DNA of 37,296 nucleotides from a virus (taxonomy: Duplodnaviria; Heunggongvirae; Uroviricota; Caudoviricetes), in the IMG/VR virus record IMGVR_UViG_2711768063_000005, positions 1 through 37,296 of that record. The stretch is one strand, 5' to 3'. The position numbers and the translations under genes are program-made. Positions 1-19,667 of this stretch are shown piece by piece; position 1 is the stretch's first letter; every line of letters begins with the position of its first letter. A model generated the notes under the pieces. That model was not told where the DNA came from. It ran no database searches and worked only from the letters and a program-made list of their open reading frames with translations.

Positions 1-1446
1 ATGAAAATTGAAGCCGTTTTATTCGATTTAGATAACACGTTAGCATCAACAAGTAAGCTAAAAGATATTAGAGAGCGTGGGGCTTATGATGAAATAACAG
101 AAGAATTACTATCAACAGTTAAACCATATAAAGGTACCAAAGAATTACTAGAAAATCTGATTTCAAAAGGTATAAAAACAGGTGTCGTAACTAATTCAAG
201 TAAACGTTATGCAGAAAAAATAATTTCACATTTAAATTTACCAAATTTCGGTACTGTGGTGACATATACTGATGTAGGTTCATCAGGGATGAAACCAAAT
301 CCTACTGGTATTAATTTAGCATTAAAAAATCTAGGAATCTCAAATCCGGAACGGGTCATTTATATTGGGGACGATTATACAGATATTATTGCTAGTTATT
401 ATGCGGGGGTTATACCGATTGTTCCATCATGGGCATCAAGGACTCCTGTTTCTCAAGTGCCAGCCGCCGTATTAAGCACTGAGTTCCTTATAGATAATAT
501 TGATGAGTATGAGAATATAATTCTCATGGCGGAAAATTGTGCACGACACAATAGCTTTGAATTTGAGCGAAAAAGATTCTACTTTGTACCTTTGGATGAG
601 TCCGCTAATGTAATTCCTTCAAGTGAAACTCTATCTACAATATGTCTTGGACGTTATTTTTCGCAAAAAAGTTTACTTACAACAAAATTACACGATTCGC
701 ATCCATTATCTATTGAGATCGCCAAGAAAGAGCATGACGATAATTATGTGCCTCCAGAGTATTGGGGCGATATTTTAGCGCATGCGGCAGATAATATTCC
801 ATCTTTTTTCCGGGCTACTAAAGGTTTTGATATTGTTACAGTAATACCAGCTAAAAAAGGAAAAAAAGAAAGATTAGAGAGAGTCTTAGAAAATGCGCGA
901 AGTAAAAGCAATTCCAATGCTGCTTTTATAGCTGATCTTTTTGTTTTTAGTGAGGGAGCAAAATCACTTAAGACCTTACCAAAGGATCAGCGTTCGATAG
1001 AAATAGAATCTAGTTTGCATATGAATCCCAAATATAAAGGTACGCTTGAAGGTAAGACCGTATTAATATTTGATGATGTCATTACCACAGGCTCAACCTT
1101 AAAAAGAGCTTATTCATTGTTGAGAGACGAAAACGTTAAACATAGTTTAGGATTATGCTTGGCTAAAACAGTCTCTATATTTGAAGAGGATAGGCTTTGT
1201 CCTGAATGCATGTGTCACATTCTTAAAATAAAGACAAACTCTCTAACGGGTATTCGATTTTGGGGGTGTTCAGGATATAATGATGAATCAGATAAGTGTG
1301 ATTACACTGAAAGTATCGTTGAGAAACAATGCCCTAACTGTGGTAGAGATATGGTTAAAAAGTATAATAAATGGAAGAGAGTTCGTTTTTTATCCTGTAC
1401 AGGATGGAATAAAGAACCTCGATGCAATTACACTGAGAGTGAGTGA
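1..1446 (+). CDS. Three-part fusion protein: N-terminal HAD-like hydrolase, central type I phosphoribosyltransferase (ComF-like PRTase), C-terminal tandem topoisomerase-type zinc ribbons; ShosT-like toxin candidate
   Basis: HAD motif I FDLDNTL at residues 8-14 with downstream GVVTNSS, KPNP and IGDDYTD motifs; PRTase signature GKTVLIFDDVITTGSTL; two C-terminal CxxC...GCS/SCTG...CxYTES ribbons. ATG sits exactly at window position 1, so promoter and RBS are off-window. Stop overlaps start of next gene. AT-rich. Confidence 0.75.
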   Translation: MKIEAVLFDLDNTLASTSKLKDIRERGAYDEITEELLSTVKPYKGTKELLENLISKGIKTGVVTNSSKRYAEKIISHLNLPNFGTVVTYTDVGSSGMKPNPTGINLALKNLGISNPERVIYIGDDYTDIIASYYAGVIPIVPSWASRTPVSQVPAAVLSTEFLIDNIDEYENIILMAENCARHNSFEFERKRFYFVPLDESANVIPSSETLSTICLGRYFSQKSLLTTKLHDSHPLSIEIAKKEHDDNYVPPEYWGDILAHAADNIPSFFRATKGFDIVTVIPAKKGKKERLERVLENARSKSNSNAAFIADLFVFSEGAKSLKTLPKDQRSIEIESSLHMNPKYKGTLEGKTVLIFDDVITTGSTLKRAYSLLRDENVKHSLGLCLAKTVSIFEEDRLCPECMCHILKIKTNSLTGIRFWGCSGYNDESDKCDYTESIVEKQCPNCGRDMVKKYNKWKRVRFLSCTGWNKEPRCNYTESE

Positions 1447-2429
1447 TGTTGACAATATCTCCAGACACAGAAAAATTGTTAACACTTAGTGCCCTTAAAG
1501 GAGTGGGTACTAAGTCGTTATCTAGTTTAGGCATGCTCAAAGACTTTTCTAGTTTATCTCTTGAGGAGTTGGTGAGATTATTGGGGGTTAAGGAATTAGC
1601 TTCCGATGATTTTTTAGTGGCTAGAGATTTCGCAAGAAAGAATATTGATATAGCTCATGCTAAAAATCATTCTATAATTTCATTTTTTGATGAATGTTAC
1701 CCTGATACATTAAAGGTTACTAGCGATAGACCTGCAATACTTTATTGTGCTGGTAACATTGATTGTCTGCGTAATAAATGTTTGGCGGTAATTGGTACCC
1801 GTGAACCCACTCTACATGGTGAAACGATTGCAAAAAATATCACCAAGTGGTTCACCAAAAAAGGTTGGACCATTGTAAGTGGCTTGGCTAAAGGTGTTGA
1901 TTCAATTGCTCATACCTCCGCTATTGAAAACCAAGGTAAAACAATAGCAGTCATGGCTCAGGGGTTGGAAAAAATTTATCCCAGAGAGAATAAAAAACTC
2001 GCAATGGATATTATTAGTACAGGAGGGGTATTAATTTCGGAATATGCCTATGGAAGTCATACATTTCGTAATAACTTTGTAGAGCGTGATAGAATACAGG
2101 CAGGATTATCAGCTGGGGTTTTAATGGTTCAATCTGACTTAAAAGGTGGTAGTCTGCATGCATCTCGCTCAGCAGTAAATTATGGAAGATATCTTGTTAT
2201 TCCCAATCAGTCCAGAAGAGATATTCTTAATAGCGAGCCTAAAATACAGGCTAATCTTGCATTTATGAGTGGTGATTATTATTTAATTAGATCATTATTG
2301 AAAGTTAATGGAGATATAAGTAAATCTTTAATAATTATGGAAAGCAGTAACGATTACCTTAAGGTTGAAGAGCAATTGTACGATGCCCTTCATTCATTGC
2401 ATAATCAGTATAATGGTTTTGATTTTTAA
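1446..2429 (+). CDS. DprA/Smf-like (Rossmann/SLOG fold) protein; ShosA-like antitoxin candidate
   Basis: DprA-like core LAVIGTREPT...VSGLAKGVDSIAH...TIAVMAQGL...IYP...GGVLISEY...RNNFVERDRIQAGLSAGVLMVQS...GGSLHASRSA. ATG at 1446 overlaps the TGA of the upstream gene (TGATG coupling); track ORF starts 3 nt earlier at GTG. Confidence 0.75.
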   Translation: MLTISPDTEKLLTLSALKGVGTKSLSSLGMLKDFSSLSLEELVRLLGVKELASDDFLVARDFARKNIDIAHAKNHSIISFFDECYPDTLKVTSDRPAILYCAGNIDCLRNKCLAVIGTREPTLHGETIAKNITKWFTKKGWTIVSGLAKGVDSIAHTSAIENQGKTIAVMAQGLEKIYPRENKKLAMDIISTGGVLISEYAYGSHTFRNNFVERDRIQAGLSAGVLMVQSDLKGGSLHASRSAVNYGRYLVIPNQSRRDILNSEPKIQANLAFMSGDYYLIRSLLKVNGDISKSLIIMESSNDYLKVEEQLYDALHSLHNQYNGFDF

Positions 2430-2494: not shown

Positions 2495-3622
2495 TTAGAA
2501 GGTTACCGTTATCCAATTTTTACCTCGATCATCTCGATATTTAGCTGTCTGGTTTAGAGACTTGTGGCCAAGCAATTTCTGAGTATCAATACCTTGACCT
2601 CCGTAGAGACGTTCGGACAAGGAACGTTGTTCGTGGAATGTCGCTGGAGTACCATCACCCCAATCAATTCCTGCTAAATCTCTCGCTTTACTAAAATTCA
2701 TCGTCAATGTATTGGCTGTAACCTGCGCGCCACGTTCAGCCTGTGAAGTAGTACGAAAAAAATGTACAAGGTATGGGCTGACTACATAGTCACGACAGCG
2801 GGCTACTACATCGCGCAAACTCCAGTTGATCGCATTGAGACGCAGGGAAAGCGGGATGGCGATTTTGCTACCGGTTTTTTCCTGGATGACATGGAGATGA
2901 TCATCCCAAATATCGCTAAATTTCATACGCGAGATATCACCTAACCTCTGGCCGGTAACCAGTGCTAACAGCATGGCATTCCCCATATAACGATGACTGG
3001 CATCTGCGATATCAAAGATTTTTTGCCATTCTTCAAGACTTAACCGTTGTCGGGTAATTTTTCTTCTGGGCTGTTTGGTCGCTAATGCTGGATTATAGCC
3101 TGGAGGGACTTCCCCGTAGTGTTGTGCCTCCTTGAATACATCAATTAGAACGGAGCGGACTACTTGCGCCATCCTCGGTTGCCCAGCAGTGATATACTCG
3201 TCAAGCAATTGTGCGATATCCCTTACATCAACGGATGAAATTAACTTCATTCCTGCTCGCTCCCTGAGCAAGGACACTGGTTTAGCTTTCTGTTTATAGG
3301 TGTTGAGCTTTATATCACCACTTTTCAGTCTGTCATCCTGGATTGCTTGATAGCGATCTAACCAGGTTGATGTTGTGATTGCTTTTCCTTTGCTGGTTGC
3401 GATCCTGTCACTGATAGCCAGAATCTGCCGGGTTCTTTGCTCAGCCAGGCGTGTATTGGCCTCAGTGGCAATAGCAATGGCTTCCGCTTCGTTTGTGCCC
3501 AAAGAATGGAACTTCCCGGTCACTGGATGCTTATATCGCCAATAGACTTTATTTACTTTTCTGCTATAAAGCGGATACAAGTTCGGGACTGAAACATTAT
3601 TTTTACGTGGTCTGGCTGCCAT
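2495..3622 (-). CDS. int: Tyrosine recombinase, lambda Int-family prophage integrase
   Basis: 375 aa; C-terminus TFHEQRSLSERLY...LLGHKSLNQTAKYRDDRGKNW parallels the lambda Int C-terminus (TFHELRSLSARLY...LLGHKSDTMASQYRDDRGREW) including the catalytic Tyr region. Confidence 0.9.
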   Translation of the reverse strand: MAARPRKNNVSVPNLYPLYSRKVNKVYWRYKHPVTGKFHSLGTNEAEAIAIATEANTRLAEQRTRQILAISDRIATSKGKAITTSTWLDRYQAIQDDRLKSGDIKLNTYKQKAKPVSLLRERAGMKLISSVDVRDIAQLLDEYITAGQPRMAQVVRSVLIDVFKEAQHYGEVPPGYNPALATKQPRRKITRQRLSLEEWQKIFDIADASHRYMGNAMLLALVTGQRLGDISRMKFSDIWDDHLHVIQEKTGSKIAIPLSLRLNAINWSLRDVVARCRDYVVSPYLVHFFRTTSQAERGAQVTANTLTMNFSKARDLAGIDWGDGTPATFHEQRSLSERLYGGQGIDTQKLLGHKSLNQTAKYRDDRGKNWITVTF

Positions 3623-11760: not shown

Positions 11761-12558
11761 ATGAATAATCTGATGGTCATTGATGGTATTGAAGTTCGTC
11801 GTGATGCTTATGGTCGTTACAGCCTGAACGATCTTCACAGGGCTGCCGGTTCTCTGGATAAGCATAAGCCTGCATTCTGGCTCCGCAATGAGCAAACTGA
11901 ACGTTTAATAAGCGAGTTGCAGATTTGCAACTCGGTCAATATAGAGCCAGTTAACGTTATTCGTGGCGGAAATAACCAGGGGACGTATGTCTGCAAAGAA
12001 CTGGTGTATGCCTATGCAATGTGGATAAGCCCGTCATTCCATCTTAAGGTGATCCGTACTTTCGACATGGTAACCAGCGCACCGGAAAAATTATCCGGAC
12101 AGGCTGCTGACAAGATGCAGGCTGGTGTGATTCTGCTGGACTTTATGCGCCGGGAATTAAATCTGTCTAACTCTTCAGTGCTTGGTGCCTGTCAGAAACT
12201 CCAGGAGGCTGTTGGCTTACCGAATCTGGCACCGCGCTATGCCATTGATGCTCCTGCTGACGCGCCTGATGGCTCAAGCCGCCCCACGCTGTCACTGAGT
12301 GCACTGCTGAAGCAGTATGGTATCCGCCTGACAGCTAATCAGGCATATCACCAGATGGTGAAGCTGGGGATCGTCGAGCAGCGCGAACGATACAGCCGTA
12401 CCGCGATTAACAACATCAAAAAATTCTGGTCGCTGACAGCGAAAGGCTGCATGTTCGGCAAGAATATCACCAGTCCCGCAAATCCGCGCGAGACGCAGCC
12501 GCATTTCTTCGAATCCCGATTCCCTGAGCTGTTAAAGCTGCTCGATACCGTTCATTGA
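11761..12558 (+). CDS. KilA-N domain protein (antirepressor-like)
   Basis: N-terminal IDGIEVRRDAYGRYSLNDLHRAAG...KPAFWLRNEQTERLISEL...GTYVCKELVYAYAMWISPSFHLKVIRTF is typical of KilA-N/Bro-N type DNA-binding domains. Confidence 0.65.
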   Translation: MNNLMVIDGIEVRRDAYGRYSLNDLHRAAGSLDKHKPAFWLRNEQTERLISELQICNSVNIEPVNVIRGGNNQGTYVCKELVYAYAMWISPSFHLKVIRTFDMVTSAPEKLSGQAADKMQAGVILLDFMRRELNLSNSSVLGACQKLQEAVGLPNLAPRYAIDAPADAPDGSSRPTLSLSALLKQYGIRLTANQAYHQMVKLGIVEQRERYSRTAINNIKKFWSLTAKGCMFGKNITSPANPRETQPHFFESRFPELLKLLDTVH

Positions 12559-12559
12559 G

Positions 12560-13555
12560 GTGACCGTGAGAGCACTACTGACCCCTGAAATTGCCCCGCG
12601 TATGGGGATCGTATTGTTCAGGCCAGGTTCAGAGTTGATGCCCCTGTTTATGCAGGGGCGTGTCCTGCTGGAGCCTGAGCCGGAACGTTATTCATCTTTC
12701 GCCAGCGGTGCAGTTCCGGCGGCATCACAACCGCTGGCGGATGATCCTGCCGTTCGGGCCGTGTTCCGCAATGAGGCAGTGATCCGTCGTGCTGGTGGCG
12801 TGGAATGTCTTGAAAGCTGGTTACTTCGTGAAAAAGGCTGCCAGTGGCCTCATTCCGACTGGCACAGCGAGAACATGACCACAATGCGACACGCTCCGGG
12901 CGCAATCCGTCTGTGCTGGCACTGCGATAACCAGCTGCGCGATCAGTTCACGGAACGGCTGGAATCAATGGCAACGGATAACTGTGCCCGCTGGGTGTTG
13001 TCTGTTGTGCGTCGGAATCTCGGTTTTGATGACAGTCACGTTGTGACAATGCCGGAACTGTGCTGGTGGCTGATTCGTAATGACCTGGCGGATGCCTTAC
13101 CGGAAAGTGCAGCCCGTAAGGCACTGAGATTACCGAAGCCTGTTGTGCCGTCTGTCACCCGGGAAAGTGACCTTGTGCCTTCGGTTCCTGCCACCAGCAT
13201 CATCCAGGATAAGGCGAAAAAGGTGCTGGCGCTGAAAGTGGATCCGGAGTCGCCGGAGTCTTTTATGTTACGCCCAAAACGTCGCCGCTGGGTTAATGAA
13301 AAGTACACGCGCTGGGTTAAGACACAGCCGTGTGCATGTTGTGGAAAGCCTGCTGATGATCCCCACCACCTGATAGGCCACGGTCAGGGGGGAATGGGTA
13401 CAAAAGCGCATGACCTCTTTGTGTTGCCTTTGTGCAGAAAGCATCACGACGAGCTGCATGCGGATACCGTGGCATTTGAAGAGAAGTATGGCTCCCAGTT
13501 GGAGCTGATATTTCGTTTTATTGATCGTGCGCTGGCAATTGGCGTGCTGGCCTGA
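12560..13555 (+). CDS. DUF968/YdfU-like phage protein with C-terminal HNH-like zinc-binding motif
   Basis: C-terminus CACCGKPADDPHHLIGHGQGGMGTKAHDLFVLPLCRKHHDELH; GTG start embedded in GAGGTG (alternative GTG at 12566). Confidence 0.55.
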   Translation: MTVRALLTPEIAPRMGIVLFRPGSELMPLFMQGRVLLEPEPERYSSFASGAVPAASQPLADDPAVRAVFRNEAVIRRAGGVECLESWLLREKGCQWPHSDWHSENMTTMRHAPGAIRLCWHCDNQLRDQFTERLESMATDNCARWVLSVVRRNLGFDDSHVVTMPELCWWLIRNDLADALPESAARKALRLPKPVVPSVTRESDLVPSVPATSIIQDKAKKVLALKVDPESPESFMLRPKRRRWVNEKYTRWVKTQPCACCGKPADDPHHLIGHGQGGMGTKAHDLFVLPLCRKHHDELHADTVAFEEKYGSQLELIFRFIDRALAIGVLA

Positions 13556-13569
13556 TTTGGTGGAGAAAG

Positions 13570-13920
13570 TTGATGCGTGATATGTATGAAGTATTGGACC
13601 GCTGGGGAGCATGGGCTGCAGCAGAAAATAGTGGTGTGGACTGGCAGCCGATAGCGGCTGGTTTCAAGGGACTTTTACCACACGGTAAAAAGTCACGTCT
13701 CCAGTGTGATGATGATGAAGGCATCATGATAGATAGTTGTGTGGCTAGGTTGCGTAAATATAAGCCGGAAGAGTATGAGCTGATAATTGCTCACTTTGTT
13801 ATCGGTATCTCATTACGCACTATTGCGAAGAAGAGAAAATGCTCTGATGGGACTATAAGAAAAAAGTTGCAAGCTGCATTGGGATTTATTGATGCAGTTA
13901 TATATATAATACATGGGTAA
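13570..13920 (+). CDS. Late-gene antiterminator, Q-like (small Q family)
   Basis: GGAGAAAG RBS; 116 aa; position immediately upstream of the late promoter/lysis region; family call from memory of small phage antiterminator Q proteins. Confidence 0.5.
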   Translation: MMRDMYEVLDRWGAWAAAENSGVDWQPIAAGFKGLLPHGKKSRLQCDDDEGIMIDSCVARLRKYKPEEYELIIAHFVIGISLRTIAKKRKCSDGTIRKKLQAALGFIDAVIYIIHG

Positions 13921-13927
13921 TTTATTA

Positions 13928-13946
13928 GACGGCCATATTGGCCGTC
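13928..13946. terminator. Bidirectional hairpin between convergent Q and the cargo cassette
   Basis: Perfect inverted repeat GACGGCCA-tat-TGGCCGTC in an AT-rich context; overlaps the stop of the minus-strand gene. Confidence 0.45.
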
Positions 13947-15123
13947 AGCTAAATAAATATGTAATAGCATAAGGCGTAAGTAAAAAGTAGAATCTAAATG
14001 TAAGATATAAGCCACATAAAACTATAATTCCTAATGAGGCAAAAACAATTTTCTGAACAAGCAATCTTGTGGTTAAACTATCAAATGTATCCTTTATATC
14101 TTCGTAAATAGCCTTGAAGTTATATTCTGCTTGTTGTTTTTTATGATTTAACTCATCATTTATTGCTGTTAAAGTTTGCCATTGATTAAATAGAACAAAT
14201 AGAATCATAATAGTGAAGAACAATGCACCCAACACTACAGCTGTGTTTATTAATGCTTGACTATCCCAACCATTAGCCTGCTTCATTTGAGTCGCAACGA
14301 TAATTGTTGCGACGGGGATACCTAATATCTGATTTTGTATGTCACTGAATACTTTATGTATTTTCCCCATCTCTTCTATTTTGGCTACTCGTAACTGATC
14401 CAGTATTTTCTCGTAAGAAAAACCAGAAACGAATACTTTGTATCCTTTTTGATAACTTTCATAAAGTTGTCCTAAATCCCTTAACATGAAGGAAAAAGAG
14501 GTTTCTTTAGTTTTAGATTCACATGATGATTTTATACTACTTGCTAAAATAGTAAGTTTTTGATCTTTATGCGTATCTTCTGCAAAGTTTGCGATCAAAT
14601 TATGAATCAGATCTCCATTAACATTCATAAGATCATCGCTAGAATAATTTACTGGAATTTTTAGTACGTTGGATTCGACGAATACCAATTCAAAATTTGT
14701 TTCATCTAAATAAGCAGAACAATCTTTGAATAAAGTAATTAAGCTCAAAACATCTCTGTACTTGGATATAATAGCAGGCGACTTTTTATCCCTGTTGTGA
14801 TAATTAAGTTCGATTATAAAGAAGTTACTGGCTTCCTTTATCCTATTTTTAGGATTTTTTAAATACTCATTAAAAGAGAAATGTAGCTGCCCCAATCGTA
14901 ATTTGGGGGGGGTTATATGTAAGGTTATAGTTTGGCCTAACTCAATGTTGCCAGATTCAAGGGTGATGCCAAAATCATGGGGATTCTCTGTGATATCGTT
15001 GATGATGTCACAGAGCTCCTCGTTTGAAAGAATGAGTGATGCTTCAGATAGGGTACCTGCAAATGTAGCGGCCTTGTAAATAGTCACTAAGTCTTTGAAG
15101 GTTCTCTGATTGTTACTGCTCAT
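13945..15123 (-). CDS. Membrane-anchored protein of unknown function (about 290-aa soluble N-terminal region, two C-terminal TM helices); partner of the NA37-like gene
   Basis: ATG at 15123 with AGGTG 6 nt upstream, inside the last codons of the upstream gene (11-nt overlap, coupling). Hydrophobic segments ALINTAVVLGALFFTIMILFVLF and IVFASLGIIVLCGLYLTFRFYFLL near the C-terminus. AT-rich. No family recognised. Confidence 0.7.
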   Translation of the reverse strand: MSSNNQRTFKDLVTIYKAATFAGTLSEASLILSNEELCDIINDITENPHDFGITLESGNIELGQTITLHITPPKLRLGQLHFSFNEYLKNPKNRIKEASNFFIIELNYHNRDKKSPAIISKYRDVLSLITLFKDCSAYLDETNFELVFVESNVLKIPVNYSSDDLMNVNGDLIHNLIANFAEDTHKDQKLTILASSIKSSCESKTKETSFSFMLRDLGQLYESYQKGYKVFVSGFSYEKILDQLRVAKIEEMGKIHKVFSDIQNQILGIPVATIIVATQMKQANGWDSQALINTAVVLGALFFTIMILFVLFNQWQTLTAINDELNHKKQQAEYNFKAIYEDIKDTFDSLTTRLLVQKIVFASLGIIVLCGLYLTFRFYFLLTPYAITYLFS

Positions 15124-16147
15124 CCTCTTCACCTAATTCTGATAAAATCTCTGATCTTAGCGTATCCGGAATCTCGGTAAGTATCAATTTATCGTTTTCT
15201 GAATCATAAAGAACGCTGCCATCATGCAAGGCCGCACGCTCGAATTTCAGAGACCAATGTTTGGACTTTCCTTTGAAACTAACAAGCCCACGTATAACGT
15301 TGCCATCAGGCACGAACCCATCAGAGAACTCCAGATCGTCATTGGTTAACTTTTCAACTAACAACTCAGGAGCAGTTGGCCATATCTCGTTTGCAAAAAT
15401 TTGAGTGTCGAAAGTTTCACCAGAACGATTTAAATTTTTTAATTTTTCATGAGCCTTATTTAGGAACTCTTCACGTGCCTCTGGTTCAAAACCTCTTTCA
15501 GTAGCAAATTCTAAAAGTGCATTCCGTAATTTTGTTGTTTCTTGTTTGGCAATTAGAATATCGTTGCAACCTAAAAACTTTTTGAAATAACCTGCTACTG
15601 AATTTTGCCCCTTTAGAAAGCTAATATATCTCTCTTTGCCATTCTGGCGCCCAGTTAAGTCAATTCGTCCCGCTACTCGAAGTTTAGCAATGTCTAGATA
15701 TTCACTTTCTTGAATTTCAAAATCGTGGACTGAAGAGCCAACTGCTGATGTTAGGATTGCAACCATCAAATAATGATTTCCATTTACCTCATTATGGGCA
15801 ATTATTACATAACCACCAGTAGACATTGATTCATCATCGGCTCTGGCTTTTAAATGATTGATCATTCGGATACTAGTATCATAAAAACTATGTGTTTTAT
15901 TTACGAAATAATCATCAACGATATTACCCATAGGGTAACTATCGCGGTCATCTTCAAATTTCCCATATCCTTTACCTGCTCTCCCAGAGTACCTTTCAGT
16001 AAGTGCGTTAGAGAGGTCTTTTGATGCTTGCTGAACAGGTTTTTCTGAAGGACAAGGAATAATGGTGGCTAACCCCTGTTGTTCCTTGTTCATAATGTGA
16101 ACAATAAACTTATGAGTGATATTAGTGGGGGTCGCTGATGCAGTCAT
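15113..16147 (-). CDS. NdpA/YejK-like nucleoid-associated protein homologue (NA37 family), phage-encoded
   Basis: Full-length collinearity with E. coli YejK as I recall it: [22 protein letters not shown] vs [38 protein letters not shown] vs [25 protein letters not shown]...FLG vs TRYLTFLKG...FLG. AAGGA RBS 8 nt upstream of the ATG; AT-rich. Confidence 0.8.
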   Translation of the reverse strand: [344 protein letters not shown]

Positions 16148-16263
16148 AACAACATCCTTTTAATGGTTTTGAACAATTGGTGTTGATAATACTTCAAAAA
16201 ATACTAATGCGTACGCAAAAAATACAGTACTCTGTTAAGAGTGGTTACTTCGCCACACAGCTT
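16148..16263. promoter_or_regulatory. AT-rich divergent promoter region: candidate late promoter (PR'/qut-like, + strand) and promoter of the antisense cargo operon (- strand)
   Basis: Intergenic AT-rich stretch with TTGATA/TTGAAC -35-like hexamers, followed on the + strand by a short leader ending in a terminator; assignment by position. Confidence 0.35.
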
Positions 16264-16290
16264 AAACCCGCCGTCGAGCGGGTTTTGTCG
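16264..16290 (+). terminator. Rho-independent terminator (tR'-like) upstream of the lysis cassette
   Basis: AAACCCGC-cgtcga-GCGGGTTTTGTCGTTT: GC stem followed by a T-run. Confidence 0.55.
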
Positions 16291-16437
16291 TTTCTGGGCT
16301 TTGGTATTCGTTGGGCTTGGTCTATCTAGCTCTTATCCATTGGCTCGGCTTCTTTTACGTTTCCGCTTCTGATTTGCGGTTCGTGGTACTCCCTCAATTT
16401 GCACCTCTTGTATCGGCGAGGTGAGAGATAACTACAA

Positions 16438-16764
16438 ATGCCTCATAACCCAAATACTTGGCTGGAGTTGGTCCAGAGCTGGTGGCGTGGAGACACACCG
16501 CTGGGCGCAGTGATTATGTCGATTGTTATGGCTGGTTTGCGCATTGCCTATTTTGGCGGTGGTGGTGGCTGGAAGCGAAAAACACTCGAAATTCTACTCT
16601 GTGGCGCTCTGACGCTGACTTTTGCATCCGCTCTTGAGTATGTCGGATGGCCTAAATCGCTTTCTGTTGCCATTGGTGGTGGGGTGGGGCTGATCGGTGT
16701 CGATGCTATTCGTGGGGCTGCAATGAGAGTAATCGGTAATAAGTTTGGTGGCTCTAAGGAGTAA
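16438..16764 (+). CDS. S: Holin (lambda S-like class I)
   Basis: GAGGTGA RBS; 108 aa with hydrophobic segments and charged C-terminus; directly upstream of the endolysin; pattern resembles lambda S. Confidence 0.8.
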   Translation: MPHNPNTWLELVQSWWRGDTPLGAVIMSIVMAGLRIAYFGGGGGWKRKTLEILLCGALTLTFASALEYVGWPKSLSVAIGGGVGLIGVDAIRGAAMRVIGNKFGGSKE

Positions 16765-16767
16765 TTT

Positions 16768-17244
16768 ATGCAGGTACTAAATTCCCAGCGTAAAGCTTTC
16801 CTCGATATGGTGGCATGGTCAGAAGGAACGGATAACGGGCGACAACCGACACGTAACCACGGTTATGATGTTATTGTTGGTGGTGAACTGTTCACTGATT
16901 ACTCCGATCACCCTCGCAAACTTGTCACGCTAAACCCAAAACTCAAATCAACAGCCGCCGGACGTTACCAGCTTCTTTCCCGTTGGTGGGATGCCTACCG
17001 TAAGCAGCTTGGCCTGAAAGACTTCTCTCCAAAAAGCCAGGACGCTGTGGCATTGCAGCAGATTAAGGAGCGTGGCGCTTTACCGATGATTGATCGCGGT
17101 GATATTCGTCAGGCTATCGACCGTTGCAGCAATATCTGGGCTTCACTGCCGGGCGCTGGTTATGGCCAGTTCGAGCATAAGGCTGACAGCCTGATTGCAA
17201 AATTCAAAGAGGCTGGCGGAACGGTCAGAGAGATTGAGGTATGA
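16768..17244 (+). CDS. R: Endolysin, lambda R-type lytic transglycosylase
   Basis: 158 aa; [58 protein letters not shown]... matches lambda R nearly residue for residue as I recall it. Confidence 0.95.
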
Positions 17245-17678
17245 GCAGAGTCACCGCGATTATCTCCGCTCTGATTATCTGCATCATCGTCTGCCTGTCA
17301 TGGGCTGTTAATCATTACCGTGATAACGCCATCGCCTACAAAGAGCAGCGCGATAAAGCCACATCCATCATCGCTGACATGCAGAAGCGTCAACGTGATG
17401 TAGCAGAACTCGACGCCAGATATACAAAGGAGCTTGCTGATGCTAACGCGACTATCGAAAGTCTCCGTGCTGATGTTTCTGCTGGGCGTAAGCGCCTGCA
17501 AGTCGCCGCCACCTGTGCAAAGTCAACGACCGGAGCCAGCAGCATGGGCGATGGAGAAAGCCCAGGACTTACAGCAGATGCTGAACTCAATTATTACCGT
17601 CTCCGAAGTGGAATCGACAGGATAACCGCGCAGGTTAACTACCTGCAGGAATACATCAGGACGCAATGCCTTCGATGA
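17241..17678 (+). CDS. Rz: i-spanin Rz
   Basis: N-terminal signal-anchor [30 protein letters not shown] matches lambda Rz; coiled-coil periplasmic domain. Confidence 0.85.
17434..17625 (+). CDS. Rz1: o-spanin Rz1 lipoprotein, embedded in the +1 frame of Rz
   Basis: Lipobox LLGVSAC followed by a proline-rich segment ([16 protein letters not shown]), entirely within Rz, as in lambda. Confidence 0.8.
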
Positions 17679-17867
17679 TAGCGATAATTTTACTCATCAT
17701 CCTTCACATCTGGCTCTGTAGACAGGGTGATGCTTACTTCTGGAGCGAATCCAGATTAAACATCTCATTGCTGATGCTTGATATTGAGCATCTGGCGCGC
17801 GGTAAGGGCTGTGTTGAGATAAGTGCCAGTTCATTACAAAGCTATATCTAATGGAACCTGAAATAAT

Positions 17868-17885
17868 TTGTCATTGTCATGACAA
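17868..17885. promoter_or_regulatory. TTGTCAT direct repeat plus 12-bp perfect palindrome TTGTCATGACAA overlapping a -35-like hexamer upstream of the first moron gene
   Basis: TTGTCA-N16-TAATGA promoter-like arrangement; palindrome could be an operator. Confidence 0.3.
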
Positions 17886-17928
17886 GAAAATTCATTAATG
17901 ATGAGCTCTCATTATACGGGAGGTAGAT

Positions 17929-18177
17929 ATGGCATTTCGTTATTTTGAACTTACCGAAAATATTCCTTTTGAGGATGCAAGAGAGCTTCACGTACAGTTC
18001 AAACACCACTTAGAATATGTTGTAAAGGCGTTATTTATGCCAGGAACACATGAAAAGCATTTAATTGTTGAAGGCCGGGATGACGAATCGATAACACAGA
18101 TATTTGGTGGGCATGATGAAAAGTTTATGCATCTTTATCATATCGATGAATATGAAAAATGTGAAGACTTAATCTAA
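17929..18177 (+). CDS. Hypothetical small His-rich protein (82 aa), moron
   Basis: GGGAGG RBS at 6-nt spacing; AT-rich; no recognised family. Confidence 0.5.
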   Translation: MAFRYFELTENIPFEDARELHVQFKHHLEYVVKALFMPGTHEKHLIVEGRDDESITQIFGGHDEKFMHLYHIDEYEKCEDLI

Positions 18178-18292
18178 CCTCCTACGACTGTTTTTATTGC
18201 CATCATAAAAGCCATTCCTTGCAGAGTGGCTTTGATAATGGATATCCCAACAAGCGGATAAGACAATAAATATACCCACCAAGGGATAAACA

Positions 18293-18808
18293 ATGTCTAA
18301 AATCACGGTTACACCTGCATAGCAGATCCGCTTAAACCTGCTGGCGAAACTGAACTATGACACCGCCGCTGCAGCAGACGCGATTAAGTTTGTTGGTGAC
18401 GATCCGTTGAAGTATCAAATCTTTGTGAACCAGTTAAGCTGGGTAACATCTGAAAGCGGGCTGGTAGCCAGAACGACGAAAGCTATCAAAGAGTCGGAAG
18501 ACACACTACTGTGGTTTGAAGCTGAATCTGGTTCATACGTGAATGAATGTGGTAATTTAATTCTCCGCAAAAAAAAGGGGATAAAAATGCCAAAGAATGT
18601 CATAGCTATTTTACCGGGTGACGCGTTTGATCATGTTGTTGTCCAGGACGACCTGGAGATTGTTACCTTCAGGGGTGACAAGGGCGGCGTGCTTACTATG
18701 CCTATCGAGGAGTACGAACTAGACGGGATAAGTTATAACGTCGCACGTTGTGACGGTATGGTCACTGACGAAAAAGTTGAGAAGGCTATCAGACACTTCA
18801 CCAAGTAA
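18293..18808 (+). pseudogene. 172-codon reading frame interrupted by a single in-frame amber (TAG) at codon 10; candidate pseudogene or suppression/reinitiation-dependent gene
   Basis: ATG at 18293 with AAGGGA RBS; TAG at 18320-18322; frame continues uninterrupted to 18808 (the track ORF begins at TTG 18407 in the same frame); strong terminator follows. Confidence 0.4.
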
Positions 18809-18825
18809 TAATCAGCTTCCGAACC

Positions 18826-18850
18826 AAGCCTCGCAATAGCGAGGCTTTTT
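18826..18850 (+). terminator. Rho-independent terminator
   Basis: AAGCCTCGC-aata-GCGAGGCTTTTT. Confidence 0.65.
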
Positions 18851-18862
18851 AACGACAGAGGT

Positions 18863-19057
18863 ATGACAGTGGTTCTTACAGCTAAGCAGTTTGAAGACCT
18901 TGCATCCTTCGCGAAGGAAGATAGCCAGCCTCAATACACCATCGCAACCGGAATAATCCCAGAATTCGAAGATGATTGTGAGTTTATCCCCGTTTATGCC
19001 GGGCTCATCGCTTATTTAGAGTTACTGAATCACGGTGTATTGCAACTCGACCACTAG
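18863..19057 (+). CDS. Hypothetical small acidic protein (64 aa)
   Basis: ORF between two terminators; RBS spacing poor (GAGG immediately before the ATG), so uncertain. Confidence 0.35.
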   Translation: MTVVLTAKQFEDLASFAKEDSQPQYTIATGIIPEFEDDCEFIPVYAGLIAYLELLNHGVLQLDH

Positions 19058-19131
19058 CGACATTACGCCAAGTATTCATCAAGTGCCTAGTTTAATGTTA
19101 AATTATTCCCTCATTCCTAAAAGGGAATGTT

Positions 19132-19533
19132 ATGAAAATAGATCACGAGTATTTGAAAGGTCTTTTGGAAGCTTTCGAGGCGTCTGAAGAGCCGCATACT
19201 GATATAAAGCAGCTGCAGCTGGCTGGGTATGACTACAGCACCGATGAATTTTTATTCCATATGCGTTTATTGGCTGATCGTCAACTAATTGCTAGAACAG
19301 ACGGCAAGTATGGGTTTGGTTTCTCTGAGGCTGCTGAGGGAGGATCATGGTTCGTTATACCGTTACGATTAACTTCAAGCGGTCATGACTTCCTTGAAGC
19401 TCTCAGGAATAAAGAGGTTTGGAATTCTCTCAAGACCGGCTTTAAAGATGCAAGCATTGGAACATTAGTTGACGTTTCAAGGCGTTTGCTGGATGGTTAT
19501 ATTCAGAAAAAAATTGACGACTTAATTGGCTAA
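19132..19533 (+). CDS. Hypothetical protein (133 aa), moron; possibly DUF2513-like
   Basis: AAGGGAA RBS; small hairpin overlapping the RBS (TTCCCT...AGGGAA); own terminator downstream. Confidence 0.55.
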   Translation: MKIDHEYLKGLLEAFEASEEPHTDIKQLQLAGYDYSTDEFLFHMRLLADRQLIARTDGKYGFGFSEAAEGGSWFVIPLRLTSSGHDFLEALRNKEVWNSLKTGFKDASIGTLVDVSRRLLDGYIQKKIDDLIG

Positions 19534-19550
19534 TATTTTATATAACCATC

Positions 19551-19576
19551 AGCCCCGCAATCGCGGGGCTTTTTTA
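19551..19576 (+). terminator. Rho-independent terminator
   Basis: AGCCCCGC-aatc-GCGGGGCTTTTTT. Confidence 0.7.
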
Positions 19577-19667
19577 TTGCCATTATGATGGCAGATACAT
19601 TGCTATGGCGTAACAGGATTTCAACTATGAACCCAACAGAAGCAGCTACATCACCGAAGGACGGATA

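What the first reader, a model, noticed from the sequence alone, without database searches (positions are those of the whole stretch)
13945..16147. Antisense AT-rich two-gene cassette (NdpA/YejK-like NA37 homologue plus membrane-anchored partner) between Q and the lysis genes: candidate undescribed defence or conversion module
Two translationally coupled genes (11-nt overlap) sit on the opposite strand to all flanking phage genes, in a visibly AT-poorer-GC island between the Q-like antiterminator and the late promoter/holin. That slot is a classic moron/cargo position in lambdoid phages. The upstream gene is a full-length homologue of the host nucleoid-associated protein YejK/NdpA (collinear blocks [12 protein letters not shown]...GRIDLT, RY.SFLKG...FLG). 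Its partner has a ~290-aa soluble region with no domain I recognise, then two C-terminal transmembrane helices. A DNA-binding NA37-like protein paired with a membrane protein suggests a sensor-effector arrangement (abortive infection or superinfection exclusion). I do not know a named defence system with this composition.
Basis: partly seen in the sequence, partly recalled or inferred. Interest (0 to 1): 0.85.

Follow-up and report, generated by a model that had tools for sequence, protein, structure and literature searches.

The report
Prophage-borne NAP-plus-membrane-effector defence pair

Summary
Two minus-strand genes overlap by 11 nt: 15113-16147 (344 aa, Pfam NA37, E 8e-69) and 13945-15123 (392 aa, soluble N-region plus two C-terminal TM helices). 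They form a low-GC island (0.31-0.39 against 0.50-0.58 in the flanks) between Q and the late-promoter/holin region of an E. coli lambdoid prophage.

The pair is not an undescribed kind. Both proteins hit, below the curated cut-offs, the NCBIfam models for the two components of DS-1 (E 2.8e-15 and 1.6e-19). DS-1 is an experimentally validated NA37 + partner anti-phage system (DefensePredictor, Science 2026). The architecture also equals "type II PANGU" (bioRxiv, April 2026). In that system a nucleoid-bound YejK-like sensor is released when a phage degrades host DNA and engages a membrane effector, causing abortive infection.

The exact gene-1 protein, and a cluster represented by the gene-2 accession, are already listed as predicted defence genes in DefensePredictor Table S10. 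They were not among the tested systems.

New here:
- The partner family is large (1,133 representatives of 50%-identity clusters) and has no Pfam family.
- It follows an NA37 gene in 39 of 39 informative phage loci.
- It recurs at the Q/lysis junction in 15 of 21 non-redundant loci.
- The slot is swappable: 16 of 5,426 E. coli genomes carry this cassette.

Verdict: a new member of a known kind, of modest interest.

The parts
15113..16147 (-). Gene 1: a 344-aa YejK-like nucleoid-associated protein (NA37 family), the predicted DNA-bound sensor. It is Pag2A-like / DS-1A-like and is RefSeq WP_000127202.1.
   Evidence: Pfam NA37 E 8.3e-69 over the full length. PHROG 3767 'nucleoid associated protein' E 4e-80. 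NCBIfam YejK 164.8 bits (cut-off 341) and DS1_1_antiphage E 2.8e-15 at 56 bits (cut-off 330). PDB YejK 9be2 E 1.7e-19. BLASTP against DS-1A gives 25% identity, E 3e-10. DefensePredictor log-odds 9.14.
13945..15123 (-). Gene 2: a 392-aa partner and predicted membrane effector (Pag2B-like / DS-1B-like, RefSeq WP_053264141.1). An alternative GTG start lies at 15132. It has an alpha/beta N-domain (aa ~9-215), a highly conserved juxtamembrane helix (aa ~217-280), TM1 at ~289-312, a helical hairpin of about 40 aa, and TM2 at ~357-384.
   Evidence: No Pfam family. PHROG 5023, unknown function, E 6e-80. NCBIfam DS1_2_antiphage E 1.6e-19 at 70 bits (cut-off 315). A profile of 115 homologues hits DS-1B at E 6e-15. 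AF2 gives pLDDT 77 for the full length and 92.6 for the N-domain alone. There is no confident PDB neighbour. The cluster represented by this accession has log-odds 11.97 in DefensePredictor Table S10.
15113..15123 (-). The 11-nt overlap between the gene 1 stop and the gene 2 start (translational coupling), with a GGTGA Shine-Dalgarno-like motif just upstream.
   Evidence: Sequence read. An abutting or overlapping junction is seen in all 39 informative viral-contig loci and in genomic loci.
13928..13946 (.). A perfect 7-bp GC-rich hairpin (GACGGCC-ATATT-GGCCGTC) between the convergent Q stop (13918-13920) and the gene 2 stop (13945-13947). It is a candidate terminator for the cassette and possibly for Q read-through.
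   Evidence: Sequence read. The terminator function is inferred. The consensus scan did not call it because there is no clean T-run.
16148..16197 (-). The cassette-specific 5' region. It holds the Shine-Dalgarno AAGGA (16155-16159) 7 nt before the gene 1 ATG, and a candidate -10 TATTAT (16186-16191). No canonical -35 was found.
   Evidence: Sequence read. 'GAAGTATTATCA' is conserved in 7 of 9 antisense-type loci. The promoter scan found no site here, so promoter assignment is inference only.
13893..16197 (.). The swappable cargo module. Homology to a related E. coli prophage that carries a different three-gene cassette stops at 13892 (inside the 3' end of Q) and resumes at 16198.
   Evidence: blastn of L002 against the window aligns L002 1-1893 to window 12000-13892 (96%) and L002 3861-4908 to window 16198-17245 (92%).
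16198..16285 (+). Context, not part of the cassette: the phage late-promoter region, with the invariant element TTGCGTACGC (16209-18) and the tR'-like terminator (16264-16285). It bounds the slot on the holin side.
   Evidence: The element is invariant in 9 loci. It is also present in L002, which lacks the cassette.

Best explanation
The cassette is a prophage-carried abortive-infection defence system of the NAP-sensor / membrane-effector kind (DS-1, type II PANGU).

Proposed working:
1. In the lysogen both genes are expressed from the cassette's own promoter, antisense to the phage late operon.
2. The NA37 protein (gene 1) sits non-specifically on long chromosomal DNA, away from its partner.
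3. The partner (gene 2) is anchored in the inner membrane by two C-terminal helices, with its roughly 285-aa acidic N-region in the cytoplasm.
4. When an infecting lytic phage degrades the host chromosome, the NA37 protein loses its DNA, diffuses, and binds the cytoplasmic domain of the partner.
5. This switches the membrane module on, probably as an oligomeric pore or channel that collapses membrane integrity or potential. The infected cell stops supporting phage growth and the rest of the lysogen population is protected.

What was shown here:
- Gene anatomy, family membership of gene 1 and TM architecture of gene 2.
- Homology of both proteins to DS-1A and DS-1B.
- Strict pairing and co-divergence of the two genes.
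- Cargo status of the module.

What was taken from papers on relatives: the defence phenotype, the requirement for both genes, NAP relocalisation, NAP binding to the effector N-domain, and T4 denA escape mutants.

What is inferred: that this divergent pair behaves the same way, and the pore or channel nature of the effector.
For: Homology to a validated system:
- NCBIfam DS1_1_antiphage E 2.8e-15 (gene 1) and DS1_2_antiphage E 1.6e-19 (gene 2).
- BLASTP E 3e-10 and 4e-7.
- A profile of the gene 2 family hits DS-1B at E 6e-15 over positions 140-357.
- DS-1 (NA37 gene followed by a 404-aa partner) was cloned in MG1655 and reduced plating. The -log10 EOP values were Bas1 7.6, Bas26 2.7, Bas3 1.7, T3 1.7 and T5 1.0.

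Same architecture as type II PANGU:
- That system pairs a YejK-like NAP with a TM effector that has a cytoplasmic acidic N-domain.
- Both genes are required and neither is toxic alone.
- It shows abortive-infection kinetics, and T4 escapes through denA mutations.
- Pag2A-GFP leaves the nucleoid on infection, and Pag2A binds the Pag2B N-domain with KD 19 nM.

Prior prediction: DefensePredictor Table S10 lists WP_000127202.1 (log-odds 9.14) and the cluster represented by WP_053264141.1 (11.97) as predicted defence genes.

The pair behaves as a unit:
- An NA37 gene lies immediately upstream on the same strand in 39 of 39 informative viral-contig loci.
- All six genome or plasmid contexts read also show the pair, and so does Sinorhizobium phage phi2LM21.
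- Pairwise identities of the two proteins correlate at r = 0.96, with 0 of 2000 Mantel permutations reaching that value.

Cargo behaviour:
- The module is low in GC.
- It is present in 16 of 5,426 E. coli genomes, and a different cassette replaces it at the same breakpoints in relatives.
- In Methylotenera it lies in an integrase island next to DNA methyltransferases.

Effector features:
- Two TM helices.
- The N-domain is acidic across the family: mean net charge -9.3, with this protein at about -5.
Against: - No experiment exists on this particular pair.
- Identity to DS-1A and DS-1B is only 25-28%. Both NCBIfam scores are far below the equivalog cut-offs (56 against 330, and 70 against 315).
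- The DS-1A zinc ribbon is absent.
- PADLOC 2023 finds nothing.
- The N-domain of this protein is only mildly acidic, which is weak support for a DNA-mimic surface.
- No promoter could be assigned upstream of gene 1.
- In Mu-like and Morganella phages the pair is co-directional with the holin and sits just upstream of it. That would also fit a role in the phage's own late programme.
- How any Pag2B-type effector kills or arrests the cell is unknown, even in the source paper.
Confidence: 0.7

Rival explanations
1. The pair serves the phage's own lytic programme and not host defence. For example, the membrane protein could modulate lysis timing or holin triggering under control of a DNA-bound partner, or the pair could exclude superinfecting DNA at the membrane without killing the cell.
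For: The pair sits at the Q/lysis junction in 15 of 21 non-redundant viral-contig loci. In 7 of these it lies co-directionally just upstream of a holin, where it would be transcribed with the late genes. The partner is a small-loop two-TM inner-membrane protein next to lysis genes. Both families are PHROGs, i.e. phage protein families.
Against: In this window and 7 other non-redundant loci the pair is antisense to Q and the lysis genes and lies upstream of the late promoter, so it is not part of the late transcript. It also occurs away from lysis genes: next to tail-fibre genes in Xenorhabdus, in an integrase/methyltransferase island in Methylotenera, and near the end of the linear genome record of phage phi2LM21. 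Related prophages with near-identical Q, holin and lysozyme lack it and carry other cargo, so it is dispensable for lysis. Homologous systems protect when expressed alone from plasmids.
Confidence: 0.1
2. Lysogenic conversion through chromatin. The prophage supplies an extra YejK-like nucleoid protein that alters host chromosome organisation, topoisomerase activity or gene expression. The membrane partner merely tethers or sequesters it.
For: Gene 1 scores higher against the housekeeping YejK model (164.8 bits) than against the DS-1A model (56 bits). It aligns with the solved YejK structure over residues 93-334. The PANGU authors note that the physiological role of YejK remains poorly understood.
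Against: Gene 1 never occurs without the membrane partner in the loci examined, and the two co-diverge tightly. That argues for a two-component device and against a free architectural protein. The YejK equivalog cut-off is not met. Relatives have a demonstrated defence phenotype that needs both genes.
Confidence: 0.07
3. The cassette is an inert or decaying passenger: it was once functional cargo and is now neutral DNA.
For: Decayed copies exist elsewhere. The NA37 gene is split into 247-aa and 97-aa ORFs in Xenorhabdus. A truncated 267-aa version of gene 2 at 99% identity occurs on 11 contigs. Gene 2 is split in locus L045.
Against: In this window both ORFs are full length and are 97.7-100% identical across 16 complete E. 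coli genomes from unrelated sources. All family-invariant residues of gene 2 were defined on this sequence and are therefore present. The exact proteins are seen on 700 and 174 contigs respectively.
Confidence: 0.05

Closest known systems
DS-1 (DS-1A WP_000355468.1 + DS-1B WP_000150292.1), DeWeirdt et al., DefensePredictor, bioRxiv 2025 / Science 2026 (PMC13092281)
   Same: It is a two-gene operon with an NA37/YejK-like protein first and a partner of about 400 aa, with hydrophobic C-terminal segments, second. Both proteins are significantly homologous to the window's pair. It comes from E. coli. It was validated as anti-phage when cloned in MG1655.
   Different: Identity is only 25-28%, and both NCBIfam equivalog cut-offs are missed by a wide margin. 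DS-1A has an N-terminal zinc ribbon (CxxC...CxxC) that is absent here. The first ~135 residues of the partners do not align in the family-profile comparison. The C-terminal hydrophobic segments of DS-1B are weaker on the Kyte-Doolittle scale. No mechanism for DS-1 was found in the text of the source paper that was read.
Type II PANGU (Pag2A + Pag2B, e.g. PANGU-Ecu), Li et al., bioRxiv 10.64898/2026.04.06.716658
   Same: It is a bicistronic operon of a YejK-like NAP plus an effector with a cytoplasmic N-terminal domain and a C-terminal TM domain, from E. coli. It is the best available mechanistic model: NAP release on phage-induced genome degradation, NAP binding to the effector N-domain, and abortive infection.
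   Different: Sequences and accessions are not held, so homology to Pag2A/Pag2B is untested. The window pair could be identical to a tested system, a close relative or a separate subfamily. The preprint frames these systems through defence islands and never mentions prophages (0 occurrences). Here the pair is overwhelmingly phage-borne and sits at the Q/lysis junction.
Type I PANGU (Pag1A + GRel toxSAS Pag1B), same preprint
   Same: It uses the same YejK-like sensor and the same trigger (T4 EndoII-dependent host DNA degradation). The sensor binds an acidic DNA-mimic domain of the effector.
   Different: The effector is a soluble alarmone synthetase that makes pppGpp. Gene 2 has no such domain and is a membrane protein.
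E. coli YejK (housekeeping nucleoid-associated protein; PDB 9be2)
   Same: Same Pfam family (NA37) over the full length and the same conserved core blocks.
   Different: Gene 1 is not an orthologue: 164.8 bits against an equivalog cut-off of 341. It is phage-borne, low in GC, and always coupled to a membrane partner.
Lambda RexA/RexB (from my own knowledge, not tested here)
   Same: It is a prophage-encoded two-component abortive-infection device in which a cytoplasmic sensor activates an inner-membrane effector that depolarises the cell on infection by T4 rII-type phages. It works like what is proposed here.
   Different: There is no sequence or domain relationship. RexA is not an NA37 protein and RexB has four TM helices. 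The rex genes lie in the immunity region, not at the Q/lysis junction.

Membership tests
Pfam NA37 / YejK-like nucleoid-associated proteins (gene 1) | Full-length match to PF04245 above the gathering score | tested here: met
   232.9 bits against a cut-off of 24.6, E 8.3e-69, residues 15-330 on profile positions 1-324 of 325.
Housekeeping YejK (NCBIfam NF001557 equivalog) | Score at or above the curated equivalog cut-off (341 bits) | tested here: not met
   164.8 bits. Gene 1 is a paralogue, not the chromosomal YejK.
DS-1 | Component A reaches the NF053868 (DS1_1_antiphage) equivalog cut-off of 330 bits | tested here: not met
   56.2 bits, E 2.8e-15, covering only residues 56-247. It is homologous but not an equivalog.
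DS-1 | Component B reaches the NF053869 (DS1_2_antiphage) equivalog cut-off of 315 bits | tested here: not met
   70.2 bits, E 1.6e-19, residues 86-333 on profile positions 36-287 of 337. The family profile hits DS-1B at E 6e-15.
DS-1 | Gene order: NA37 gene first, ~400-aa partner second, same strand, abutting | tested here: met
   DS-1A spans 220602-221777 and DS-1B spans 221780-222994. In the window the two genes overlap by 11 nt.
DS-1 | N-terminal zinc ribbon on the NA37 component (feature of DS-1A; in DS-1A the NA37 domain starts at residue 42) | tested here: not met
   DS-1A begins MDITCLECG...CDKCG and has a NinF-like hit. Gene 1 has a single Cys in its first 40 residues and its NA37 domain starts at residue 15.
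DS-1 | Anti-phage phenotype when expressed in E. coli | not testable with these tools
   Shown for DS-1 itself, not for this pair.
Type II PANGU | YejK-like NAP gene in an operon (intergenic gap < 40 bp) with one partner gene | tested here: met
   The window genes overlap by 11 nt. The pair is conserved in 39 of 39 informative loci.
Type II PANGU | Partner has a C-terminal transmembrane domain | tested here: met
   Hydrophobic helices at ~289-312 and ~357-384. AF2 predicts helices at 288-335 and 337-382.
Type II PANGU | Partner N-terminal domain is an acidic DNA-mimic ('DMK') surface that binds the NAP | tested here: inconclusive
   Net charge is -5 for aa 1-285 of this protein. The family mean is -9.3 for aa 1-218, range -18 to 0. 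Surface electrostatics and binding could not be computed. The N-domain fold is confident (pLDDT 92.6) but has no informative PDB neighbour.
Type II PANGU | Match to the authors' Pag2A/Pag2B HMMs (Cluster 2) | not testable with these tools
   No sequences, accessions or supplementary files are held for the preprint.
Type II PANGU | Both genes required; abortive infection; trigger is phage-induced host DNA degradation (T4 denA escapers); NAP leaves the nucleoid | not testable with these tools
   Reported for PANGU-Ecu. Experiments are needed for this pair.

The most novel reading that the evidence does not exclude
The window pair represents a distinct, mainly prophage-borne lineage of NAP-triggered defence. 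Its effector is a new kind of ligand-gated membrane channel. A confidently folded N-domain with no solved-structure neighbour and the near-invariant juxtamembrane helix (aa 221-280) would transmit NAP binding to a two-TM pore, in a CorA-like layout. Its repeated capture at the Q/late-promoter/holin junction, in two orientations and in both lambdoid and Mu-like phages, would reflect a functional link to the phage lysis programme and not just a permissive insertion site.
Probability: 0.12. Interest if true: 0.55.

Novelty: new member of a known kind. Interest (0 to 1): 0.25.

Why it matters
- It shows that public annotation lags behind the literature. RefSeq calls these proteins 'nucleoid-associated protein' and 'hypothetical protein'. 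PADLOC 2023 and the NCBIfam cut-offs miss them. Both are nonetheless recognisable relatives of a validated defence system.
- The partner family is large (1,133 representatives of 50%-identity clusters) and strictly NA37-linked. One profile built on it would therefore annotate many prophage genes as probable defence effectors.
- The PANGU preprint, which never mentions prophages, does not cover the prophage setting. The pair recurs at the Q/lysis junction, and a swappable slot with defined breakpoints lies between Q and the late promoter. That gives a natural context for studying how lysogens use a sensor of host-DNA degradation.
- It would also allow a test of why lambdoid phages, which to my knowledge do not degrade host DNA, can carry such a system safely.
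- The effector mechanism of this kind of system is still open.

Tried and rejected
- **PADLOC-DB v2.0.0**: no hit for either protein.
- **PDB sequence search for gene 2**: nothing at E <= 1.
- **Foldseek of the full-length gene 2 model against PDB**: nothing at E <= 0.001.
- **AFDB50 fold library**: not available.
- **Rfam and tRNA scans of the whole window**: nothing.
- **Promoter scan**: no sigma-70-like site upstream of gene 1, and overall counts are no higher than in shuffled sequence.
- **Conserved TTGCGTACGC element**: I first suspected that this element upstream of gene 1 was the cassette's regulatory site. I rejected that because it is also present in the related prophage that lacks the cassette, so it belongs to the Q/late-promoter region.
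- **Identity to the tested PANGU-Ecu system**: I looked for its sequence to decide whether the window pair is identical to it. No accessions or supplements are held.
- **Modelling the gene 1-gene 2 complex**: considered and dropped. The structure tool is single-chain and returns no interface metrics.
Full report
**What is in the sequence**

The window is a lambdoid prophage of E. coli. Bases 13500-16800 are 100% identical to the chromosome of strain 2c3 and 97.7-99.8% identical to 15 other complete genomes.

On the + strand the order is KilA-N (11761-12558), DUF968/HNH (12560-13555), Q antiterminator (13570-13920; PF06530, E 1e-44), then holin (16438-16764), lysozyme and Rz.

Between Q and the holin lie two minus-strand genes:
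- Gene 1, 15113-16147, 344 aa.
- Gene 2, 13945-15123, 392 aa from the ATG that RefSeq uses. A GTG nine bases upstream is an alternative start.

The gene 1 stop and the gene 2 ATG overlap by 11 nt, with a GGTGA motif in front of the ATG.

GC falls to 0.31-0.39 over the cassette, against 0.50-0.58 in the flanks.

A perfect 7-bp hairpin (13928-13946) sits between the convergent stops of Q and gene 2. A tR'-like terminator at 16264-16285 (+) places the late promoter between the cassette and the holin.

**What the two proteins are**

Gene 1 is a full-length member of Pfam NA37 (E 8.3e-69) and of PHROG 3767. It aligns with the solved YejK structure 9be2 (E 1.7e-19). It scores only 164.8 bits on the NCBIfam YejK equivalog model (cut-off 341), so it is a paralogue and not the housekeeping YejK.

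Gene 2 has no Pfam family and belongs to PHROG 5023, of unknown function. Its anatomy from hydropathy and AlphaFold2 is:
- An alpha/beta N-domain, aa ~9-215.
- A very long helix, aa 217-278.
- TM1 at about aa 289-312.
- A helical hairpin of about 40 residues.
- TM2 at about aa 357-384.

The best-conserved stretch of the family is the juxtamembrane helix, aa 221-280, with column identity of 0.71-0.90.

**The key result: the kind is already described**

NCBIfam release 20 holds two models named DS1_1_antiphage ('nucleoid-associated anti-phage protein') and DS1_2_antiphage. Gene 1 hits the first (E 2.8e-15, 56 bits) and gene 2 hits the second (E 1.6e-19, 70 bits). Both scores are well below the equivalog cut-offs of 330 and 315 bits.

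DS-1 comes from the DefensePredictor study (PMC13092281). It is a two-gene E. coli unit: DS-1A (WP_000355468.1, 391 aa, zinc ribbon plus NA37) followed by DS-1B (WP_000150292.1, 404 aa, hypothetical). It was cloned in MG1655 and scored as defensive.

The screen values for DS-1, as -log10 EOP, were:

| Phage | -log10 EOP |
|---|---|
| Bas1 | 7.6 |
| Bas26 | 2.7 |
| Bas3 | 1.7 |
| T3 | 1.7 |
| T5 | 1.0 |
| T7 | 0.9 |

Direct comparisons confirm distant homology of both components:
- 25% identity to DS-1A, E 3e-10.
- 28% identity over 104 residues to DS-1B, E 4e-7.
- A profile of 115 gene 2 homologues matches DS-1B at E 6e-15 over positions 140-357.

Table S10 of the same paper lists predicted, uncharacterised defence clusters in 3,000 E. 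coli genomes. It contains the exact gene 1 protein WP_000127202.1 (log-odds 9.14). It also contains a cluster whose representative is the gene 2 accession WP_053264141.1 (log-odds 11.97). The stringent cut-off in that study is 4. The pair is not in the table of cloned transcription units as far as the held text shows.

**A mechanistic model from a second paper**

A bioRxiv preprint of April 2026 (10.64898/2026.04.06.716658) defines 'PANGU' systems as bicistronic operons with a YejK-like NAP.

Type II pairs the NAP Pag2A with a transmembrane effector Pag2B. Pag2B has an N-terminal acidic 'DNA-mimicking' domain and a C-terminal TM domain.

For the E. coli system PANGU-Ecu the authors report the following:
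- Protection of 3-4 logs was reported for the four active systems against T4 or Bas34. For PANGU-Ecu the T4 assays are the ones described.
- Both genes are required, and none of the constructs was toxic.
- The kinetics are those of abortive infection.
- T4 escapes through denA (EndoII) mutations.
- Pag2A binds the Pag2B N-domain with KD 19 nM.

For type I they show that the NAP binds DNA of 400 bp or longer non-specifically. They also show that a DNA-binding-dead NAP makes the effector toxic.

How Pag2B acts is stated to be unknown.

No sequences or supplements of this preprint are held. I therefore cannot say whether the window pair is identical to, close to, or a subtype apart from the tested type II systems.

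**Evidence gathered here on the family and its setting**

*Size of the partner family.* A word-indexed search found 359 relatives across Enterobacterales and beyond. An exhaustive profile search found 1,133 representatives of 50%-identity clusters at E <= 0.001, of which 318 are at E <= 1e-30.

*Pairing.* The pairing with NA37 is strict:
- In IMG/VR, 41 loci encode a relative. In all 39 where the upstream DNA is present, an NA37 gene lies immediately upstream on the same strand.
- Six genome or plasmid contexts also show the pair. In Xenorhabdus the NA37 gene is split into two ORFs.
- Sinorhizobium phage phi2LM21 carries it too.
- Pairwise identities of the two proteins across 18 non-redundant loci correlate at r = 0.96, with 0 of 2000 Mantel permutations reaching that value. 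The genes are inherited as a unit, and the partner diverges faster (mean identity 38% against 46%).

*Position.* The pair recurs at the same place in phage genomes. In 15 of 21 non-redundant viral loci it abuts a Q gene or sits just upstream of a holin:
- In 8 loci it is convergent with Q, 21-80 bp away, as in this window.
- In 7 loci it sits co-directionally just upstream of a holin, in Mu-like and other phages.

It also occurs next to tail-fibre genes in Xenorhabdus and in an integrase island beside DNA methyltransferases in Methylotenera.

*A swappable slot.*
- In E. coli, 3,279 of 5,426 genomes match part of a query spanning the cassette and its flanks, but only 16 carry the cassette.
- Close relatives carry a different antisense three-gene cassette: 363-aa hypothetical, STAS-like, and 153-aa hypothetical.
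- Homology between the two prophage types stops at window 13892 and resumes at 16198.
- The invariant element TTGCGTACGC just beyond that breakpoint is also present in the prophage without the cassette. It therefore belongs to the late-promoter region and not to the cassette.

**Most likely function and mechanism**

Putting these together, the cassette is best explained as a prophage-carried abortive-infection system of the DS-1 / type II PANGU kind (confidence 0.7).

Shown here:
- The anatomy of the cassette.
- Homology of both components to a validated system.
- Obligate pairing and co-divergence of the two genes.
- Cargo behaviour of the module.

Taken from papers on relatives:
- The defence phenotype.
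- The NAP-release trigger.
- NAP binding to the effector N-domain.

Inferred:
- That this divergent pair behaves alike.
- That the two-TM module acts as a pore or channel.
- That the pair is expressed in the lysogen from its own promoter. None could be assigned. There is only a conserved TATTAT at 16186-16191 and an AAGGA Shine-Dalgarno.

The DNA-mimic idea is only weakly testable. The N-domain is acidic across the family (mean net charge -9.3), but this protein is at the mild end at about -5.

**Rivals**

- A role in the phage's own lysis programme, or non-lethal exclusion (0.10). It is suggested by the position next to holins. It is weakened by the antisense, pre-promoter placement here, by occurrence elsewhere in genomes, and by dispensability in sibling prophages.
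- Lysogenic conversion through an extra nucleoid protein (0.07). The obligate membrane partner makes it unlikely.
- Inert cargo (0.05). Intact and widely identical copies make it unlikely, although decayed copies exist elsewhere.

**Novelty and score**

The kind of system is known: it was published in 2025-2026, validated experimentally in two laboratories, and has NCBIfam models.

This particular pair is a divergent and, as far as I can tell, untested member. It was already flagged computationally. It fails the DS-1 equivalog cut-offs and lacks the DS-1A zinc ribbon.

I rate it a new member of a known kind, interest 0.25. The residual value lies in three things: the large unnamed effector family, the prophage and Q/lysis-slot association that the PANGU preprint does not cover, and the open question of how the membrane effector works.

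Noticed in passing
window 1-2429 (+): A ShosTA-type defence system sits just outside the lambda-type integrase (2495-3622, minus strand). The ORF at 1..1446 is cut by the window start and carries HAD, PRTase and Zn-ribbon domains; it hits PADLOC ShosT at E 1.8e-14. The ORF at 1443..2429 is DprA-like and hits PADLOC ShosA at E 5e-80. The region is AT-rich (GC 0.35-0.40).
   Followed up: partly
L002 1953-3819 (E. coli TB06052 prophage), equivalent to window 13893-16197: Related prophages carry different antisense cargo in the same Q-to-late-promoter slot: a 363-aa hypothetical, a 105-aa STAS-like protein and a 153-aa hypothetical. None has a PADLOC hit. This may be another uncharacterised defence or moron cassette.
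   Followed up: partly
window 16207-16218, within 16198-16263: The palindromic element (A/T)TGCGTACGC(A) is invariant in 9 prophage loci whose Q proteins are only 57-84% identical. It is also present in the sibling prophage without the cassette. It is a candidate Q-binding or late-promoter element for this Q family.
   Followed up: partly
window 16264-16285 (+): A strong intrinsic terminator (AAACCCGC-CGTCGA-GCGGGTTT followed by a T-run) lies about 150 nt upstream of the holin. It resembles the lambda tR' arrangement, which would give a short constitutive late-promoter transcript. No Rfam family matched.
   Followed up: no
window 11761-12558 (+): A KilA-N domain protein in the nin region has a weak hit to the PADLOC candidate PDC-S22 (E 4.9e-6, over 38 residues only). 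This is probably just a shared KilA-N segment.
   Followed up: no
window ~17850-19600: A second low-GC stretch (0.36-0.45) lies right after the Rz gene. It holds small genes annotated in RefSeq as hypothetical, DUF2560 and DUF2513. It is possibly another cargo region between the lysis and terminase genes.
   Followed up: no
L005 4211-6017 (Xenorhabdus budapestensis); P0020; L045 4986-6195: Decayed copies of the system exist. The NA37 gene is split into 247-aa and 97-aa ORFs in Xenorhabdus. A 267-aa truncated gene 2 at 99% identity occurs on 11 contigs, named E. coli by its sources. Gene 2 is split in two in one viral contig.
   Followed up: no
[not shown]
   Followed up: partly
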